Sequence record: OQ955832.1
DNA: 57,756 nucleotides
Source: Escherichia phage vB_EcoS_PJ16
Reading direction: 5' to 3' (one strand)
This document shows, one piece after another, positions 207 through 42,588 of this stretch. A program made the translations under genes and the position numbers. The notes under the pieces were generated by a model. The model saw only the letters and a list, made by a program, of their open reading frames with translations, had not been told where the DNA came from and did not search any database. Position 1 is the first letter of the stretch, and every line of letters begins with the position of its first letter.

Positions 207-323
207 ATGTTGTGCACTAACTGTAAACTTAATACTAACATTGTATTAACTGTAAAACAGGGCGTGTGGACAACCCGTGGGTATCTGTGGGAAACTAATT
301 TAAAATTTATGGGAGACAAATTT

Positions 324-959
324 ATGAAAATTTCAGACCGGGCTAAAAGGGCTGCTCTGGAGTTAACAACCGATCAACTCCGTTTTGCTAACCTGTGGTT
401 AGATCGTGTCAATAACGGCTTCAGCAACGCTCAGTGCGTCTTACACGCTTATCCGGGACATAAAGACCCTGACGCAGCTAAAGTCACCGCACACCGCCTC
501 CTGTCGAATACGAAGGTGTTGAACTATCTGGACGCGATGGGAAGTCATGCGCTTGAATCTGTCGGGGAATCGTTAACGAGTCGTGTCGAGTGGTGGAAGC
601 GCGCGGCAAGCACGGCTGAAGAATTACTGGAACCGTACTGTCAGCGCGTCATCGTCCCTGGTGAAGACGATACAGAAGCGAAACACCTGTGGGTGAACAG
701 TACCGACGATATCCCCAGCCATCTGCAACAGTACGTAGTTTGCTACAAACGTTACATGCTGGGTGGATACATTCTGGTGACACGTGAACTGTTCGACCCG
801 AAAACTCGTGCAAAAGCGTCTGAACAACTGGATAAGATCACCGGGAACAGTATCGACCGTGTGGAATTGTCTGGCGTGGTTGGTAACGTGGTTCAGAGTG
901 TCCCTGAAGGTGCAACCATCGACGACATTGCGCAACTGTACCAGAAGGCGCTCAAATAA
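324..959 (+). CDS. Terminase small subunit (putative)
   Basis: Track ORF 207-959 trimmed to ATG 324 (GGGAGA 7 nt upstream); N-terminal ELTTDQLRFANLWL resembles TerS DNA-binding segment; terminator follows. Confidence 0.5.
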   Translation: MKISDRAKRAALELTTDQLRFANLWLDRVNNGFSNAQCVLHAYPGHKDPDAAKVTAHRLLSNTKVLNYLDAMGSHALESVGESLTSRVEWWKRAASTAEELLEPYCQRVIVPGEDDTEAKHLWVNSTDDIPSHLQQYVVCYKRYMLGGYILVTRELFDPKTRAKASEQLDKITGNSIDRVELSGVVGNVVQSVPEGATIDDIAQLYQKALK

Positions 960-1050
960 CGCCGGAAACCGTTTGCTTTTTCGATAAACAGGGTGGGGTG
1001 GTGCAAGTGTACTGGTGAAGGTGTTAAGTTCGTCAGAGAGCGTTTTAGAA

Positions 1051-1077
1051 AGCCCGGTTAATTCCGGGCTTTTTTTA
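1051..1077 (+). terminator. Rho-independent terminator
   Basis: Stem agcccgg/ccgggct, loop ttaatt, then T7 run. Confidence 0.7.
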
Positions 1078-1311
1078 GTAGAATGTTTTAGGTGCGGGAA
1101 GATTTGTATTAATGAAACTTTTCGCGTCATCAAGAGTTCTAAAGAAGCCATAATCTTTGTGATTCATTGTCACGTTGTATGGGTAATCACAGTTAAAACT
1201 TAAAGTCATAAAATAGATCCTGCCAATTTCTTTACCATTCTCAAAAATCGCAAGGTCTTTCGTAAGCAGTGAACCTGTTCCTAAAGCATATGCTGGTTCA
1301 AAAGTTTTCAT
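1075..1311 (-). CDS. Hypothetical protein (78 aa)
   Basis: Track ORF; start overlaps stop of upstream small ORF in ATGA arrangement. Confidence 0.4.
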   Translation of the reverse strand: MKTFEPAYALGTGSLLTKDLAIFENGKEIGRIYFMTLSFNCDYPYNVTMNHKDYGFFRTLDDAKSFINTNLPAPKTFY

Positions 1312-1460
1312 TTGAATTCATACTCCACAATACCAAATTCGTTAATAATTTGTGCTTTATAAAAACAACCTTTCGATGCCAGTTTATAGGCTTGTTCCAT
1401 AGTCATTTCACGATATTCAGCCATTGAATTTTCTGTTTCTAATATCATCAGTGTAACCAT
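1308..1460 (-). CDS. Hypothetical small protein (50 aa)
   Basis: Not in track; ATG with GAGGA RBS about 8 nt upstream; stop overlaps next start (ATGA). Confidence 0.35.
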   Translation of the reverse strand: MVTLMILETENSMAEYREMTMEQAYKLASKGCFYKAQIINEFGIVEYEFK

Positions 1461-37399: not shown

Positions 37400-37484
37400 T
37401 TCAACAGATGTTAATGACCAGTGGTTAGATATTTATTTCAAATGTGCAACTATTCACAACGCATTAGTAGACAGTCTTCAGTAA
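37236..37484 (+). CDS. o-spanin (Rz1-like lipoprotein)
   Basis: Out-of-frame overlap with i-spanin; signal peptide with lipobox-like INAC. Confidence 0.5.
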   Translation: MKRLILFFVTSVLLLNINACTTNELPKQKPVYQAALVQKCQTENLPRLNGLTGSDSTDVNDQWLDIYFKCATIHNALVDSLQ

Positions 37485-37697
37485 ATCTTCAACCGATACT
37501 TCAATCCACGATGCGGGAACCGGATATTCAGTCCGGTACATGAACAAGGATGTTCCTATCAACCCGTGTGGATCTGTTTTAATCCCTCGCATGTTCAACA
37601 ATGGAAAAAACTGTTCGCGTGTTTGTGGCAACCGTGCAAAGCGTCCTGTCGGGCGTTTAGCAGGATCCATAGGGTTGAATTCAACGATTGTGGACAT
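37464..37697 (-). CDS. Hypothetical protein (77 aa)
   Basis: Track ORF; last gene of leftward replication operon. Confidence 0.4.
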   Translation of the reverse strand: MSTIVEFNPMDPAKRPTGRFARLPQTREQFFPLLNMRGIKTDPHGLIGTSLFMYRTEYPVPASWIEVSVEDLLKTVY

Positions 37698-37703
37698 AGT
37701 GAG

Positions 37704-38144
37704 TTACTCCAGTGAATAGATTGTAATTTCGCAATCAATGTTGTTCAATTTTTCATAAATCAAAGGTCTGACTACTGACCATGATAAACCACCATTTGAA
37801 CAACCTAATCGTGGTAATGAAACTGAACGTATTTTAAAGTGTCTGATGACTTTTATAAGATCGTCCAAACCATATTCAATCCATTGTAATTGTGAAGGAT
37901 TACACCAATGCTCTTTAGTTGGAAAATTAATAATTATCTGATTGTTTTCAGATGTGACAAACATTTTTCCAACTTTTACATGGTGTTGTTCACACGCTTT
38001 TCGGTACTGTTTAAAATTGTCAGGAAAGGTTCTTTTAAACGCTAAAGCAATACCTTTACCCATTACACCAACGCAATTCACCGTGTTTACTAGAGCATGT
38101 GAATTGCTTTTAAGAAGGTCCCCCGTGACTTCTATTACTGACAT
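37704..38144 (-). CDS. Macrodomain protein, TARG1/DarG-like
   Basis: GDLLxxNSHALVNTVNCVGVMGKGIALAFK and PRLGCSNGGLSW resemble TARG1-type macrodomain signature. Confidence 0.7.
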   Translation of the reverse strand: MSVIEVTGDLLKSNSHALVNTVNCVGVMGKGIALAFKRTFPDNFKQYRKACEQHHVKVGKMFVTSENNQIIINFPTKEHWCNPSQLQWIEYGLDDLIKVIRHFKIRSVSLPRLGCSNGGLSWSVVRPLIYEKLNNIDCEITIYSLE

Positions 38145-38649
38145 AACAATAACTCCTGTACGCTTGTCGTTTTATTTTCTGATAGTCGGAAACTTTTACA
38201 GATCTCGTTTTACATTCACCGATACGATATGGGTCGAAAACAAACATCACCTGTGAACGGTCATTTCCTCCTGCTGGTAACCTGGTGTCAGGATCTACAA
38301 ACGCTATACGACCTTTAAACACCCATAGTTCCGAACAATGTGTCAGTGCTTTGTGAAACCAGTCTGCAGACGTCATAGCGTTCACGAGTAATAACGAACC
38401 AGTTCCTTGATGAACAGTGGTTATTATTTTATTAACCCATGGAGACGGATCGCTGTATGGTGGATTACACCAGACGAACCCACCACCATTACTTTGAACA
38501 ATCGAATTCCAGTCTTTATTCAGACTATCAGTGATAAACAACGAACATTTAGCGTTAGAACCATCGGTACACACATCAAGAACAAGTGGGAATTCACGAG
38601 AAACGTTATCAATAAAATCCCACGGTGTTTCCCAGTTGTCTTTAGCCAT
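38110..38649 (-). CDS. DNA N6-adenine methyltransferase (phage Dam type)
   Basis: Track ORF 38110-38766 trimmed to ATG 38649 (GGAGAG RBS); WETPWDF, VLDVCTD, NPPY motifs. Confidence 0.7.
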   Translation of the reverse strand: MAKDNWETPWDFIDNVSREFPLVLDVCTDGSNAKCSLFITDSLNKDWNSIVQSNGGGFVWCNPPYSDPSPWVNKIITTVHQGTGSLLLVNAMTSADWFHKALTHCSELWVFKGRIAFVDPDTRLPAGGNDRSQVMFVFDPYRIGECKTRSVKVSDYQKIKRQAYRSYCYVSNRSHGGPS

Positions 38650-38995
38650 GTTCCGGTACGCTCTCCACGCTGTAATAAACGGGGATACCCAGACGTTCAG
38701 CTTCTGCAATTTCCGCAATAGTCCCGGACGAACGACGATAATCAGGAAGCACCAGAACAGCGTCACAGCGGCGCATAATTTCTAACGTGCCTGACAGGTA
38801 GTATTCAGGTTGTATATTGCGTAAACCTCCGTCAAAGTCCCACAATTCGGTGTTCTTGTGAGGGATAACAGGGAACCACCCCGGACGTTGTAAAGCAAGT
38901 CGTTTACCTGCCTGTTCAGCGCGTGACACGTTACGGGATGTTTTAAGCGCACAGTCAGCACGATAAGGCCCGGCAATGTAACAGAGTTTAATCAT
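38642..38995 (-). CDS. Nucleoside 2-deoxyribosyltransferase-like protein
   Basis: Track ORF 38642-39085 trimmed to ATG 38995; IAGPY start and DAVLVLPDYRRSSGTIAEIAEAERLGIPV resemble the fold signature. Confidence 0.5.
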   Translation of the reverse strand: MIKLCYIAGPYRADCALKTSRNVSRAEQAGKRLALQRPGWFPVIPHKNTELWDFDGGLRNIQPEYYLSGTLEIMRRCDAVLVLPDYRRSSGTIAEIAEAERLGIPVYYSVESVPEHG

Positions 38996-39219
38996 GGTTG
39001 TTTTCCTGCATCTGTATAATGAGCTATGATTTCTTCCAAACAATTTATTGTGAAGAGAAATTTTAAACCAACCCGACATTCCCAAATATGTTCTCTCAGA
39101 TCTCTTGGGTCGGTGTACCCTCCGACAATAATAAAATTTTTAATCTCTTGTTTATATTTATCGGGAACGAAGTTGAAAAAGTCACGTTTAGTCTTAATTT
39201 CCCGACTGAATCTACTCAT
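38992..39219 (-). CDS. Hypothetical protein (75 aa)
   Basis: Track ORF, ATGA-coupled. Confidence 0.4.
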   Translation of the reverse strand: MSRFSREIKTKRDFFNFVPDKYKQEIKNFIIVGGYTDPRDLREHIWECRVGLKFLFTINCLEEIIAHYTDAGKQP

Positions 39220-39748
39220 GACGATTCATTCCTTCTAACATATCCCAGATAAGCGCAACACGACGCGGGTCAGTGCTGATAGTGTGTAAAGTTTCACATC
39301 CGTAATGCCATCCCCAGCGAACGGATAATTCTGACAGCAGATAACCACGGGAGTTAGCCAGTTCAGCCAGTTCACCAGGTTTGAACGTTGTTGTGTTAGG
39401 TTCTGTAAGAACACGAGTACCACAGATAGCGTCACTGATGCGCCACGGTTTCATCAGGTCATCAACTTTGTACCAGTTACTGATACTGATTTCAGACGTT
39501 CCCCAGCGTGCAGCCAGTTTCAGACGTTCCTGACGGGCCGGGAACATTGGCATTTGTGGTAAACGCAGTTGGGTCTGTTCTGCAGGTTCGAACATGTCAT
39601 CGTCTGTTAAACGAAATTCACCACGGTCATCAATATAAAAACCACGGGAACGACCATCACGGGTGAACCCGTCAACACGGTTGTAAATTTTACCGGGAGT
39701 AAAGACACCAATCGGTGAACCAGCTACAAATTTGTGTGAAGTATGCAT
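39212..39748 (-). CDS. Hypothetical protein (178 aa)
   Basis: Track ORF. Confidence 0.5.
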   Translation of the reverse strand: MHTSHKFVAGSPIGVFTPGKIYNRVDGFTRDGRSRGFYIDDRGEFRLTDDDMFEPAEQTQLRLPQMPMFPARQERLKLAARWGTSEISISNWYKVDDLMKPWRISDAICGTRVLTEPNTTTFKPGELAELANSRGYLLSELSVRWGWHYGCETLHTISTDPRRVALIWDMLEGMNRHE

Positions 39749-41724: not shown

Positions 41725-42588
41725 TCAGTAACCGTTACCGTTGAGAAAATTAGGGGCCGGGGTGGTCATTACCATATAACCGTTAGCGATCAGTTGTTCA
41801 TCGTTCCAACCTTGCGCAATAAACTGTTCGTAAGTTGCACCACCTGCTTTTTCAGTCATTACCTTCACAGGCGCTGCTACAGGTGCTGCCGCTGGTGTAG
41901 GCGCTGCTACAGGTGCTGCCGCTGGTATAGGCGCTGCTACAGGTGCTGCCGCTGGTGTAGGCGCTGCTACAGGTGCTGCCGCTGGTGTTACGCCGATCGG
42001 ACGTGCACCTTCAGGCATTGCAGGTGCAGCACCGAACACAGAGGCCGGAGCCGGACCGGAAATGATTTCTTCACCTGCATAAAGCAATTGCGCCATTTCC
42101 ATATTGATATACACACCAGCCTGATTACCTGTACGACCGTTTGCAACAGATGACCCGCTGATACGGTAGTAATACCCTTTTTTCGCCAGATTTTTATCAA
42201 TAACTGGCTGGTACGCTGCGTTATAAACAGGACACGCGTCAATAGCCACGTTGCGTGAGAAACCAATAACCCAGTGACCAGCATAACCCGTTTTACTCGC
42301 ATGTTTCGGATCGTCACCGTTAATAATTTTCCATGCGAAAGTTGGTTGTTGTGGTTCGCCGTTCACATAGTGTGAGTTAGCCGCTCGCATGATCGCCTGG
42401 AATACCGTACCCAGTTCACCTTGTTCTTCCCACCAGTTCGCCGCTGTTTTAGGAAACGCCAGACCAACCCACCAGTTATGTTTTTCAGGTGCTAACGGTT
42501 TATTTTCGTGGTCATGAGTGTTGATGTCGAAAAAAGAACCGCCAACCAGACGACCAACCGGAGTTACAAAAGATTCTTTCTGTGCCAT
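41725..42588 (-). CDS. ssDNA-binding-like protein (DUF2815-like, putative) with Pro/Ala repeat linker
   Basis: N-terminal VTPVGRLVGGSFF pattern; four PTPAAAPVAA repeats; sits between nuclease and polymerase. Confidence 0.4.
   Translation of the reverse strand: MAQKESFVTPVGRLVGGSFFDINTHDHENKPLAPEKHNWWVGLAFPKTAANWWEEQGELGTVFQAIMRAANSHYVNGEPQQPTFAWKIINGDDPKHASKTGYAGHWVIGFSRNVAIDACPVYNAAYQPVIDKNLAKKGYYYRISGSSVANGRTGNQAGVYINMEMAQLLYAGEEIISGPAPASVFGAAPAMPEGARPIGVTPAAAPVAAPTPAAAPVAAPIPAAAPVAAPTPAAAPVAAPVKVMTEKAGGATYEQFIAQGWNDEQLIANGYMVMTTPAPNFLNGNGY
41871..41990 (-). repeat. 30-bp tandem repeat x4 (in-frame, Pro/Ala-rich)
   Basis: gcgctgctacaggtgctgccgctggtgtag repeated with 1-2 substitutions. Confidence 0.85.

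What the first reader, a model, noticed from the sequence alone, without database searches (positions are those of the whole stretch)
38110..38995. Dam methyltransferase and nucleoside 2-deoxyribosyltransferase-like genes adjacent to the macrodomain gene
A phage-type Dam (NPPY motif) and a deoxyribosyltransferase-fold protein are co-transcribed with the macrodomain and replication genes. Together they suggest a nucleotide or DNA-modification and repair toolkit aimed at evading host restriction or nucleotide-depleting defences.
Basis: partly seen in the sequence, partly recalled or inferred. Interest (0 to 1): 0.5.

Follow-up and report, generated by a model that had tools for sequence, protein, structure and literature searches.

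The report
Phage Dam methylase plus nucleotide-hydrolase-like gene
Two real, already-annotated genes of a 9NA-like E. coli phage, a small orphan adenine DNA methyltransferase and an uncharacterised enzyme resembling nucleotide N-glycosidases, are ordinary in themselves, but this enzyme family sits next to DNA methyltransferases in many unrelated phages.

Summary
Coordinates 38110-38995 exactly span two overlapping minus-strand genes. One is a 179-aa phage-type Dam (PF05869, NPPY at residues 62-65). The other is a 117-aa protein with a nucleoside-deoxyribosyltransferase (NDT) fold. The window is a 9NA-like (Sashavirus/Nonanavirus) E. coli phage whose relatives already carry these annotations.

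The NDT-like protein belongs to DUF7768/DUF4406, not to true NDTs: it falls below the PF05014 cut-off. It keeps the catalytic Tyr6 and Glu95. It has Arg12 and Ser89, as in nucleotide hydrolases of the DNPH1/MilB type. Thr70 replaces the triad Asp. I predict a nucleotide N-glycosidase with unknown substrate.

The "toolkit" reading is only partly supported:
- The macrodomain is a separate recent insertion, DarG-like, present in only one other relative in the phage collection.
- The methyltransferase slot holds different enzymes in different relatives.
- Phage Bas82, with near-identical Dam and NDT-like genes, is reported as markedly sensitive to restriction systems.

One new point emerged. DUF7768 genes lie within 4 kb of a DNA methyltransferase (C5, N6/N4 or Dam type) in 35 of 79 viral loci, against 3 of 61 control loci, and directly adjacent in 26. 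A functional link is plausible but unproven. The genes themselves are low in novelty; the association is a moderately interesting lead.

The parts
38642..38995 (-). CDS, 117 aa. DUF7768/DUF4406 protein of the nucleoside-deoxyribosyltransferase superfamily. Predicted nucleotide N-glycosidase with unknown substrate.
   Evidence: Pfam and PHROG hits. AF2 model pLDDT 96.1. Foldseek against PDB and BFVD. In 118 non-identical family members, G9, N22, S89, G91 and E95 are invariant; Y6 is in 116, R12 in 114, T70 in 114 and R76 in 117. Conserved in all 9NA-like relatives.
38110..38649 (-). CDS, 179 aa. Orphan phage-type DNA N6-adenine methyltransferase (PF05869 'Dam'), NPPY at residues 62-65.
   Evidence: Pfam 2.6e-31, phrog_111 1.7e-46, PADLOC oMTase 1.3e-17. 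TIGR01712 scores 90.4 bits, just below its equivalog cut-off of 97.05. Homologues in 1,992 phage records; all are below 60% identical except 5 close E. coli relatives. No restriction endonuclease gene is adjacent.
38642..38649 (-). Start/stop overlap ATGGCTAA joining the NDT-like stop to the Dam start. Suggests translational coupling.
   Evidence: Read directly from the sequence. The same junction is present in Bas82 and BDX09P1.
37704..38144 (-). Neighbouring CDS, 146 aa. Stand-alone DarG-like macrodomain and candidate anti-DarTG factor. A recent insertion, not part of a conserved unit with Dam and the NDT-like gene.
   Evidence: PF01661 9e-20. PADLOC DarG 4.4e-69. NF048014 antitoxin_DarG 1.2e-66, covering only the N-terminal macrodomain, profile positions 4-147 of 338. 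Insertion relative to Bas82. BDX09P1 is the only close homologue in the phage collection.
38992..39219 (-). Upstream CDS, 75 aa (phrog_4452), function unknown. It occupies the slot that holds NinX/DUF2591 in Bas82, BDX09P1, 9NA and Sasha.
   Evidence: Homologues at 58% identity or less lie almost only in T4-like phages, in the motA-arn region.
39212..39748 (-). Conserved 178-aa gene of unknown function (phrog_19205), between the DNA polymerase gene and the variable slots.
37464..37697 (-). Conserved 77-aa gene of unknown function. Last gene of the leftward block. It forms the downstream flank of the methyltransferase and macrodomain slots.
   Evidence: No Pfam, NCBIfam or PADLOC hit.

Best explanation
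The interval encodes two separate enzymes at the far end of the leftward replication/early gene block of a 9NA-like E. coli siphophage.

(1) Dam. This is an orphan PF05869 'mini-Dam' that uses S-adenosylmethionine to methylate adenine N6 in DNA. By family precedent the site is probably GATC, but that is inferred and not shown. Full methylation of phage DNA would protect it from restriction enzymes that cut the unmethylated form of that one site, and from MutH-type nicking. It gives no general restriction resistance. The gene sits in an exchangeable slot: relatives carry other methyltransferases in the same place.

(2) NDT-like protein. This is a DUF7768/DUF4406 member of the NDT superfamily and is conserved across the whole phage group. 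It keeps the nucleophile Glu (E95) and its partner Tyr (Y6). It carries Arg at Tyr+6 (R12) and Ser at Glu-6 (S89), as do the nucleotide hydrolases of the superfamily. It most likely cleaves the N-glycosidic bond of a nucleoside 5'-monophosphate-like substrate, releasing the free base. It is unlikely to swap bases between nucleosides. This is inferred, and the substrate is unknown.

(3) Link between the two. Genes of this family lie beside DNA methyltransferases of four different families in many unrelated phages. The two products therefore probably act in one process. The features shared by C5, N4/N6 and Dam-type enzymes are the SAM/SAH cofactor cycle and the turnover of methylated DNA into nucleotides. 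This link is inferred from gene neighbourhood only; I put it at about 40-50%.

The neighbouring macrodomain is an independent DarG-like counter-defence insertion.
For: Gene identities.

Fold.

Active-site mapping:
- The profile-to-PDB alignment puts 'SsGTkaEiaeA' on the T. brucei NDT segment 'DCGTAFEVGCA', and T70 on its Asn53.
- phmmer puts S89/G91/T92/E95 on the BcmB CMP N-glycosidase segment 'SPGTHIE', and T70 on an Asp.
- The DmtZ paper (PMC12884076) defines the triad as Tyr/Asp(Asn)/Glu. It reports that Arg is common in hydrolases at the Tyr+6 position, and that hydrolases carry uncharged residues, not Asp or Asn, in the 5'-phosphate pocket.
- Conservation of these residues in 118 family members.

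Nucleotide-level context: neighbours include dNMP kinase (3), dGTP diphosphohydrolase, MazG-like protein and UDG. Fusions to dATP/dGTP diphosphohydrolase occur in BFVD.

Slot swapping.

Methyltransferase association:
- 35 of 79 IMG/VR loci have a methyltransferase within 4 kb, and 26 of 79 have one directly adjacent on the same strand. The ORFs are 17 C5, 16 N6_N4 and 4 Dam.
- After dereplicating the NDT-like protein at 90% identity the figures are 17 of 48 and 11 of 48.
- There are 11 distinct combinations of NDT cluster, methyltransferase cluster and side.
- Control loci around the DUF2800 exonuclease gave at most 3 of 61 (three ORFs hit a methyltransferase family), and no adjacent one was detected. 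Fisher p=7e-8, or 9e-5 after dereplication.
- Unbiased Pfam scans of the immediate neighbours found methyltransferases to be the commonest class, 23 of 147.
- In the metagenomic contig L016 the NDT-like and Dam proteins are both 68% identical to the window's and are adjacent.
- Chi-like phages carry the NDT-like gene and a Dam-type gene in the same leftward block.
Against: - No experiment exists on any DUF7768/DUF4406 protein.
- The triad Asp/Asn is replaced by Thr in 114 of 118 members, so the chemistry could differ or be weak.
- The Dam target site is unknown. The protein scores below the TIGR01712 equivalog cut-off and is only about 28-39% identical to homologues in T1-like, Stx and Vibrio phages.
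- The E. coli host already methylates GATC, so the benefit of a phage Dam is unclear.
- GATC is not avoided in the genome: 204 sites, observed/expected 0.82-0.94. This says nothing either way about selection from GATC-cutting enzymes.
- The methyltransferase association is not universal. In seven independently chosen metagenome loci only 1 had an adjacent methyltransferase, and 4 had one within about 4 kb. In Chi-like phages the two genes are 5.6 kb apart.
- The single control family is a core replication gene. Clustering of accessory genes at the ends of modules could explain part of the enrichment.
- No fusions between the NDT-like domain and a methyltransferase were found among the best 150 representatives.
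Confidence: 0.5

Rival explanations
1. The two genes are functionally unrelated neighbours. The far end of the replication block is a mosaic accessory region where small cargo genes are swapped between conserved flanks, and methyltransferases and NDT-like genes both tend to accumulate there. Dam acts alone as an orphan methyltransferase. The NDT-like protein acts alone in nucleotide salvage or pool sanitation.
For: - Three of the slots in this 2-kb stretch vary among close relatives: NinX versus the 75-aa gene, three methyltransferase types, and macrodomain present or absent.
- The NDT-like gene is conserved while its methyltransferase neighbour changes. This fits a conserved flank next to a hot spot.
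- Only 1 of 7 independently chosen metagenome loci has an adjacent methyltransferase.
- No domain fusions with methyltransferases were found.
- Other neighbours are ordinary replication or nucleotide genes such as RusA, SSB, RecT and DNMK.
Against: - The enrichment over a replication-module control is large: 44% against 5% within 4 kb, and 33% against 0% adjacent.
- Among loci that have a methyltransferase within 4 kb, it is directly adjacent in 26 of 35, or 11 of 17 after dereplication. About 18% would be expected for random placement among the gene slots.
- The adjacency involves 8 different methyltransferase clusters, on both sides of the gene, in phages ranging from 40% to 63% GC.
- The NDT-like plus Dam pair has co-diverged to 68% identity in L016.
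Confidence: 0.3
2. The NDT-like protein is a counter-defence enzyme. It would destroy a nucleotide-derived immune signal, or otherwise neutralise a nucleotide-targeting defence, as part of an anti-defence island together with the DarG-like macrodomain.
For: - It lies in an accessory stretch that also holds a DarG-like orphan antitoxin and a gene related to the T4 motA-arn region.
- NDT-like and TIR-like folds are used in bacterial immunity. The retron Ec86 effector is NDT-like (PMC11482910), and ThsB2 appears among the fold matches.
Against: - The gene is conserved in every 9NA-like and Chi-like phage, not patchy as counter-defence genes usually are.
- It has no PADLOC hit.
- Bas82, which carries it, shows no unusual robustness to the tested defences.
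- The macrodomain arrived separately.
- Its recurrent neighbours are methyltransferases and nucleotide-metabolism genes, not known anti-defence genes.
Confidence: 0.08
3. The NDT-like protein is a true nucleoside 2-deoxyribosyltransferase (EC 2.4.2.6) that exchanges bases between deoxynucleosides for salvage, as its GenBank name suggests.
For: - Same fold, with the nucleophile Glu and Tyr conserved.
- Annotated this way in many phage records.
- A phage PF05014 NDT with transferase activity has been reported (bioRxiv 10.1101/2025.10.22.683976).
Against: - It scores below the PF05014 cut-off: 16.4 against 28.8 bits.
- The Asp that binds the nucleoside 5'-OH in NDTs is an invariant Ser here, and Arg sits at Tyr+6. 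Both are hydrolase-type features.
- The triad Asp is Thr.
- In the same preprint, the NDTs from unmodified phage contigs showed no transglycosylation.
Confidence: 0.05

Closest known systems
Phage 'mini' Dam methyltransferases of PF05869 / TIGR01712. From my own knowledge the family includes the T1, Stx-phage VT2/933W and HP1 Dam enzymes.
   Same: Same Pfam family at 109 bits. Small single-domain enzyme with the NPPY catalytic motif. Orphan, with no endonuclease partner. Encoded in the early/replication region of a phage.
   Different: Only about 28-39% identical to homologues in T1-like, Stx and Vibrio phages. Scores just below the TIGR01712 equivalog cut-off. The target sequence has not been determined. 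The C-terminus was altered by the macrodomain insertion: it ends ...YVSNRSHGGPS, against ...YVHNR in Bas82.
DNPH1/Rcl (2'-deoxynucleoside 5'-phosphate N-hydrolase) and the MilB/BcmB CMP N-glycosidases
   Same: Same fold. Glu nucleophile in an S-x-G-x-x-x-E motif aligned with BcmB. Tyr near the N-terminus with Arg six residues later. No acidic residue at the 5'-OH-binding position. One relative (PDP46) is annotated with this name.
   Different: No significant sequence match: the best PDB E-value is 0.29. The triad Asp is Thr. The protein is shorter (117 aa). It has additional invariant or near-invariant residues of unknown role (N22, H46, R76, D78). No activity has been measured.
DmtZ of Z-genome phages, a dAMP hydrolase and deoxyribose-5-phosphate transferase (PMC12884076)
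   Same: A phage-encoded NDT-superfamily enzyme that acts on nucleoside monophosphates. Often paired or fused with a dNTP pyrophosphohydrolase. Some DUF7768-like proteins are likewise fused to, or sit next to, a dATP/dGTP diphosphohydrolase.
   Different: A different family. This phage has no PurZ or Z-genome pathway (none reported for KarinMuster and its relatives). DmtZ has Asp at Tyr+6, where this protein has Arg.
Lactobacillus / Trypanosoma nucleoside 2-deoxyribosyltransferases (PF05014)
   Same: Fold, Glu nucleophile and Tyr.
   Different: Below the Pfam cut-off. Asp-to-Ser and Asp/Asn-to-Thr changes at two defining positions.
PA1492 (PDB 1t1j), DUF1937, a structural-genomics protein of unknown function
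   Same: One of the closest solved structures by TM-score: 0.68 normalised to the query and 0.67 to the target. Also the top profile hit. DUF1937 co-hits many family members.
   Different: In the profile alignment PA1492 has no residues opposite the family's RRCD motif (a five-residue gap). Its function is also unknown.
Orphan DarG-like antitoxin mimics of phages (for the neighbouring gene only)
   Same: Stand-alone macrodomain matching the DarG N-terminal domain at 1e-66. Phage-encoded antitoxin mimics against DarTG have been described (PMC11481870, PMC13309987, PMC11825919).
   Different: Not tested here. It is outside the finding's coordinates. It lacks the DarG C-terminal domain.

Membership tests
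PF05869 phage Dam (DNA N6-adenine methyltransferase) | Profile match above the curated cut-off | tested here: met
   109 bits against 28.1, E=2.6e-31, profile positions 7-150 of 169.
PF05869 phage Dam (DNA N6-adenine methyltransferase) | Catalytic motif IV, (D/N)PP(Y/F) | tested here: met
   NPPY at residues 62-65, in WCNPPYS. Conserved in the 68%-identical homologue in L016.
TIGR01712 phage_N6A_met (equivalog) | Score above the equivalog cut-off | tested here: not met
   90.4 bits against a cut-off of 97.05. A divergent member, so function cannot be transferred automatically.
PF05869 phage Dam (DNA N6-adenine methyltransferase) | GATC specificity and actual methylation of virion DNA | not testable with these tools
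   Only indirect data: 204 GATC sites, observed/expected 0.82-0.94.
Orphan (solitary) methyltransferase | No cognate restriction endonuclease next to it | tested here: met
   The neighbours are the NDT-like gene and the macrodomain gene, or the 77-aa gene in relatives. The best PADLOC hit is the orphan-MTase model.
Nucleoside 2-deoxyribosyltransferase (PF05014, EC 2.4.2.6) | Profile match above the curated cut-off | tested here: not met
   16.4 bits against 28.8, E=0.01.
Nucleoside 2-deoxyribosyltransferase (PF05014, EC 2.4.2.6) | NDT fold | tested here: met
   AF2 pLDDT 96.1. Foldseek top hits 6evs, 2a0k, 8pqt and 6qai at probability 1.00, TM about 0.56-0.59 normalised to the query.
Nucleoside 2-deoxyribosyltransferase (PF05014, EC 2.4.2.6) | Catalytic triad Tyr / Asp(Asn) / Glu | tested here: inconclusive
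   Tyr6 (116 of 118) and Glu95 (118 of 118) are present. The Asp/Asn position, aligned with TbPDT N53 and a BcmB Asp, is Thr70 in 114 of 118 members and Asp in 3.
Nucleoside 2-deoxyribosyltransferase (PF05014, EC 2.4.2.6) | Acidic residue six positions before the Glu that binds the nucleoside 5'-OH | tested here: not met
   Invariant Ser89, aligned with the 'D' of DCGTAFE in T. brucei NDT.
DUF7768 / DUF4406 (Pfam families of unknown function, NDT-like) | Profile matches above the curated cut-offs, and shared conserved motifs | tested here: met
   35.2 bits against 26, and 30 against 22. Motifs IAGPYR, PVIPH, GTLE(L/I)MRRCDAV and SxGTxAEIAEA are shared with 50 homologues. The family has 15,774 representative clusters at E<=1e-3.
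DNPH1/Rcl-type nucleotide N-hydrolases | Hydrolase-type pocket: Arg at Tyr+6 and a non-acidic residue at Glu-6 | tested here: met
   R12 in 114 of 118 and S89 in 118 of 118. The criteria are taken from PMC12884076. The Rcl residue numbering is from my own memory.
DNPH1/Rcl-type nucleotide N-hydrolases | Hydrolysis of dNMP to base plus deoxyribose 5-phosphate | not testable with these tools
   No biochemical data on any family member were found.
DarG antitoxin (neighbouring gene 37704-38144) | Macrodomain plus the C-terminal DarT-binding domain | tested here: not met
   The match covers only profile positions 4-147 of 338. It scores 225 bits against an equivalog cut-off of 250. This is a stand-alone macrodomain, an orphan antitoxin-like protein.

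The most novel reading that the evidence does not exclude
DUF7768/DUF4406 proteins are dedicated partners of phage orphan DNA methyltransferases. The partner methyltransferases span C5-cytosine, N4/N6 and Dam types, so the shared element would be the cofactor cycle or methylated-nucleotide turnover. Two concrete possibilities follow. The protein could be an NDT-fold N-glycosidase that removes the product inhibitor S-adenosylhomocysteine (or MTA). Alternatively it could destroy methylated (d)NMPs released from methylated DNA, so that they are not re-incorporated at random. Either would be a new auxiliary function for epigenetic self-protection in phages, and the first assigned function for a family of more than 15,000 sequence clusters.
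Probability: 0.2. Interest if true: 0.6.

Novelty: new member of a known kind. Interest (0 to 1): 0.33.

Why it matters
The two genes themselves add little. Relatives in GenBank already carry the same annotations, and a near-identical phage (Bas82) shows no special resistance to restriction systems.

Three points are useful:
1. A correction. The protein annotated as 'nucleoside 2-deoxyribosyltransferase' in the 9NA-like and Chi-like phages (213 records with a homologue in the phage collection) fails two defining NDT features. It looks like a nucleotide hydrolase of unknown substrate.
2. A testable lead. This very large uncharacterised family is the commonest immediate neighbour of orphan DNA methyltransferases in the sampled phage contigs. 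This hints at an unrecognised helper activity for phage DNA methylation. Bas82 is a tractable E. coli K-12 phage in which to test it.
3. A map of a small variable stretch (NinX versus a 75-aa gene, three methyltransferase types, and a DarG-like macrodomain present or absent). It shows how such phages exchange accessory and counter-defence genes between conserved flanks.

Tried and rejected
- Sequence search of PDB with the Dam protein gave nothing meaningful.
- Literature searches for DUF4406, DUF1937, DUF7768 and for deoxyribosyltransferase plus methyltransferase neighbourhoods found no functional work. The 9NA genomics paper (PMC6819911) is not held.
- Domain fusions were sought as a functional clue. 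The ten longest of the 150 best representatives carry no informative second domain: one has HNH and none has a methyltransferase.
- A RusA control family failed because the word-indexed search returned only 2 homologues. Local seeds for RusA, SSB, RecT, MazG and dATP/dGTP diphosphohydrolase were too few to use. I used the DUF2800 exonuclease as the control instead.
- In the control set, iterative phmmer drifted onto a 163-aa ORF family, and several ORFs there contain an NPPY motif. None of these ORFs hits any Pfam family even at E<=1, so I did not count them as methyltransferases.
- GATC statistics were considered as a clue to Dam specificity. The site is neither avoided nor enriched, so they are uninformative.
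- The promoter scan is at chance level, 19 found against 17.4 expected. Apart from the absence of terminator-like sites noted above, it gives no evidence for or against separate transcription of these genes.
- I rejected the idea that the macrodomain, Dam and the NDT-like gene form one conserved cassette. The macrodomain is an insertion shared, among relatives in the phage collection, only with BDX09P1.
Full report
WHAT IS THERE

The window is a 9NA-like siphophage of E. coli. Its best DNA matches are Sashavirus BDX09P1, Bas82 KarinMuster, AVIO78A and PDP46 at about 96-97% identity. Salmonella phages Sasha, Sergei, Solent and 9NA, and several Klebsiella phages, are more distant relatives.

The finding's coordinates coincide exactly with two minus-strand genes:
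- A 117-aa gene running from 38995 to 38642.
- A 179-aa gene running from 38649 to 38110.

The second start codon overlaps the first stop (ATGGCTAA). The 179-aa gene in turn overlaps the macrodomain gene (38144 to 37704) by 35 nt.

The genes lie at the far end of a leftward block. In order, this block contains a 250-aa gene, a DUF2800 exonuclease, a Gp2.5-like single-strand binding/annealing protein, the DNA polymerase, a 178-aa gene and a 75-aa gene. Then come the two genes in question, the macrodomain gene and a 77-aa gene.

From the 178-aa gene onwards the genes overlap or are separated by a few bases. No terminator-like site lies on the minus strand between the end of the polymerase gene and the end of the block. 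Co-transcription is therefore plausible, although the promoter scan is at chance level and proves nothing.

THE METHYLTRANSFERASE

The 179-aa protein matches Pfam PF05869 'Dam' at 109 bits (E=2.6e-31), phrog_111 at 1.7e-46, and the PADLOC orphan-methyltransferase model at 1.3e-17. It has NPPY at residues 62-65.

It scores 90.4 bits against the TIGR01712 equivalog cut-off of 97.05. Outside five close E. coli relatives it is less than 60% identical to any of the 1,992 phage records that hold a homologue. It is therefore a divergent member of the family, and its target site cannot be taken as GATC without a test.

GATC occurs 204 times in the window, with observed/expected 0.82-0.94. This is uninformative. 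No endonuclease gene accompanies the methyltransferase, so it is an orphan enzyme.

THE NDT-LIKE PROTEIN

The 117-aa protein passes the cut-offs of DUF7768 and DUF4406 but not that of the true nucleoside 2-deoxyribosyltransferase family PF05014, where it scores 16.4 against 28.8 bits.

A model built on 50 homologues is very confident, with pLDDT 96.1. Its nearest solved structures are NDTs, the DUF1937 protein 1t1j, DNPH1, and the CMP N-glycosidases MilB and BcmB.

Tool-made alignments place residues as follows:
- Glu95 falls on the nucleophile Glu of T. brucei NDT and of BcmB.
- Ser89 falls on the position six residues earlier. That position is Asp in nucleoside transferases and Ser in BcmB.
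- Thr70 falls on the third triad position, which is Asn53 in the T. brucei enzyme and an Asp in BcmB.

The 2026 DmtZ paper (PMC12884076) sets out the rules of the superfamily:
- The catalytic triad is Tyr/Asp(Asn)/Glu.
- Arg is common in hydrolases at the position six residues after the Tyr.
- The 5'-phosphate pocket of hydrolases holds uncharged residues, whereas nucleoside transferases have Asp or Asn there.

In 118 non-identical members of the present family the counts are:
- Tyr6 in 116.
- Arg12 in 114.
- Ser89, Gly91 and Glu95 in all 118.
- Thr70 in 114, with Asp in 3.

The protein thus keeps the machinery for glycosidic-bond cleavage and carries the hydrolase-type pocket. Two defining features of nucleoside transferases are not met. 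I read it as a nucleotide N-glycosidase with unknown substrate. This is an inference.

Three observations fit a role at the level of nucleoside monophosphates:
- Neighbours in other phages include dNMP kinase, MazG-like protein, dATP/dGTP diphosphohydrolase and UDG.
- Some viral relatives are fused to a dATP/dGTP diphosphohydrolase domain.
- The family is very large, with 15,774 representative clusters at E<=1e-3.

I found no paper on the family's function.

IS THIS ONE TOOLKIT?

A three-way DNA alignment shows that the macrodomain gene is a clean insertion of about 447 bp. It sits between the methyltransferase gene and the 77-aa gene. Its only close homologue among 50,697 phage records is in BDX09P1.

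The macrodomain protein matches the macrodomain of the DarG antitoxin: PADLOC 4.4e-69 and NF048014 1.2e-66, covering the N-terminal domain only. It is therefore a candidate orphan antitoxin against DarTG. That kind of counter-defence has already been described.

The gene just upstream of the NDT-like gene also differs. Here it is a 75-aa gene related to small genes of the T4 motA-arn region. In Bas82, BDX09P1, 9NA and Sasha the slot holds NinX.

The methyltransferase slot varies too:
- 9NA and Sasha carry a 393-aa N6_N4 enzyme.
- Two metagenomic contigs whose NDT-like protein is 97% identical carry a 297-aa N6_N4 enzyme.

The NDT-like gene, the 178-aa gene and the 77-aa gene are constant across the close (96-97% identical) relatives compared, and the NDT-like gene is present in all 9NA-like relatives found.

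Bas82 has near-identical Dam and NDT-like genes and no macrodomain. Its authors describe it as markedly sensitive to restriction-modification systems (PMC11990801). The pair therefore gives no broad restriction evasion, and the three genes are not a co-inherited unit.

AN ASSOCIATION THAT DOES HOLD

I scanned IMG/VR with the family alignment and obtained 80 loci with 4-kb flanks. The NDT-like ORF was recovered in 79 of them, and all counts below are out of 79. I then looked for DNA methyltransferases in the flanks.

Methyltransferase ORFs, confirmed by Pfam as 17 C5, 16 N6_N4 and 4 Dam, were distributed as follows:
- Within 4 kb in 35 of 79 loci.
- Directly adjacent on the same strand in 26 of 79.
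- After collapsing NDT-like proteins at 90% identity, 17 of 48 and 11 of 48.

The adjacent cases comprise 11 distinct combinations of NDT cluster, methyltransferase cluster and side. They involve 8 methyltransferase clusters in contigs of 40-63% GC.

An unbiased Pfam scan of the immediate downstream and upstream ORFs gave methyltransferases as the commonest class:
- Downstream: 14 of 73.
- Upstream: 9 of 74.

As a control I collected 61 loci around the DUF2800 exonuclease, another gene of the same module. Only three ORFs there hit a methyltransferase family, and none was adjacent. Fisher tests give p=7e-8 for the raw counts and p=9e-5 for the dereplicated counts.

Two further observations point the same way:
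- In a more distant relative, the NDT-like and Dam proteins are both 68% identical to the window's and are still adjacent.
- In Chi-like phages, which form most of the remaining cultured-phage records with a homologue, a gene annotated 'PAPS reductase' in the same leftward block is in fact a Dam-type enzyme. It matches the window's Dam at phmmer 2.6e-12 and has NPPY.

LIMITS OF THAT ASSOCIATION

- Only one control family was used, and it is a core gene. Accessory genes may cluster at the ends of modules for reasons unrelated to function.
- Seven metagenome loci chosen independently gave one adjacent methyltransferase, one two genes away, two at about 3.7-3.8 kb, and three with none.
- No fusion with a methyltransferase was seen.
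- Gene calls were simple longest ORFs.

I therefore rate a true functional link at roughly 40-50%.

If the link is real, the variety of methyltransferase classes argues for something they all share. That would be the SAM/SAH cycle or the recycling of methylated DNA, not one particular modified base.

VERDICT

A link between the NDT-like gene and methyltransferases has statistical support. However, there is no evidence for a three-gene anti-restriction or anti-depletion toolkit, and the 'deoxyribosyltransferase' label is probably inaccurate.

Both genes are members of known families that are already annotated in relatives, so novelty is low. The lead on the DUF7768 family is worth a modest follow-up.

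Noticed in passing
window 37704-38144 (-): The macrodomain next to the finding is specifically DarG-like: PADLOC DarG 4.4e-69 and NCBIfam antitoxin_DarG 1.2e-66, macrodomain part only. It is a clean insertion of about 447 bp relative to Bas82. This makes it a candidate orphan antitoxin against the DarTG defence system.
   Followed up: partly
window 38992-39219 (-): A 75-aa gene (phrog_4452) replaces the NinX/DUF2591 gene of Bas82, BDX09P1, 9NA and Sasha between conserved flanks. Its homologues (58% identity or less, 801 phage records) are almost all in T4-like phages, in the motA-arn region. Some annotations call it 'anti-restriction nuclease', apparently by proximity to arn. Its function is unknown.
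   Followed up: partly
L156 (NC_048648.1, Salmonella phage ST-101) 38963-39649 (-): In Chi-like phages a 228-aa gene annotated 'phosphoadenosine phosphosulfate reductase' matches the window's Dam (phmmer 2.6e-12) and carries NPPY. The name looks like a PHROG-derived misannotation of a Dam-type methyltransferase. PHROG 33262 bears the same name, and positions 303-448 of its 495-position profile match the window's Dam.
   Followed up: partly
L009 3623-4513 and L010 3327-4217 (IMG/VR contigs from sample 3300045988): Two contigs whose NDT-like protein is 97% identical to the window's carry a 297-aa N6_N4 methyltransferase in the slot that holds Dam here. This is a third occupant of that slot, besides the 393-aa enzyme of 9NA and Sasha.
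   Followed up: partly
window 41869-41988 (within the Gp2.5-like SSB gene 41725-42588): A 30-bp tandem repeat of 4.0 copies with 97% matches. It encodes PAAAPVAAP(T/I) repeats in the C-terminal part of the single-strand binding/annealing protein. The protein is 287 aa here and 343 aa in Bas82, so repeat number or linker length varies among relatives.
   Followed up: no
whole window: CTAG is strongly avoided: 12 sites against about 58 expected from a Markov model. GGCC and AGCT are also low, and CCGG is over-represented (observed/expected 1.4).
   Followed up: no
NDT-like protein residues 75 and 98 (window 38702-38704 and 38771-38773): Across 118 family members Arg75 and Glu98 appear to covary. 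Residue 75 is Arg in 89 and Glu in 20, and residue 98 is Glu in 89 and Arg in 20. This suggests a salt bridge that has swapped polarity, though I did not check that the same sequences carry both changes.
   Followed up: no
L091 3715-4420: One metagenomic phage contig has two DUF7768 genes in tandem. They are followed by a gene with a dATP/dGTP diphosphohydrolase domain two genes downstream.
   Followed up: no
L095-L102, about 250-1370 (-), and L105, L109, L111, L116, L118: In the control loci upstream of the DUF2800 exonuclease genes there is a conserved 163-aa ORF family, and several 180-210-aa ORFs containing NPP[YFW]. None has any Pfam hit even at E<=1. They may be antisense artefacts or an undescribed family.
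   Followed up: partly
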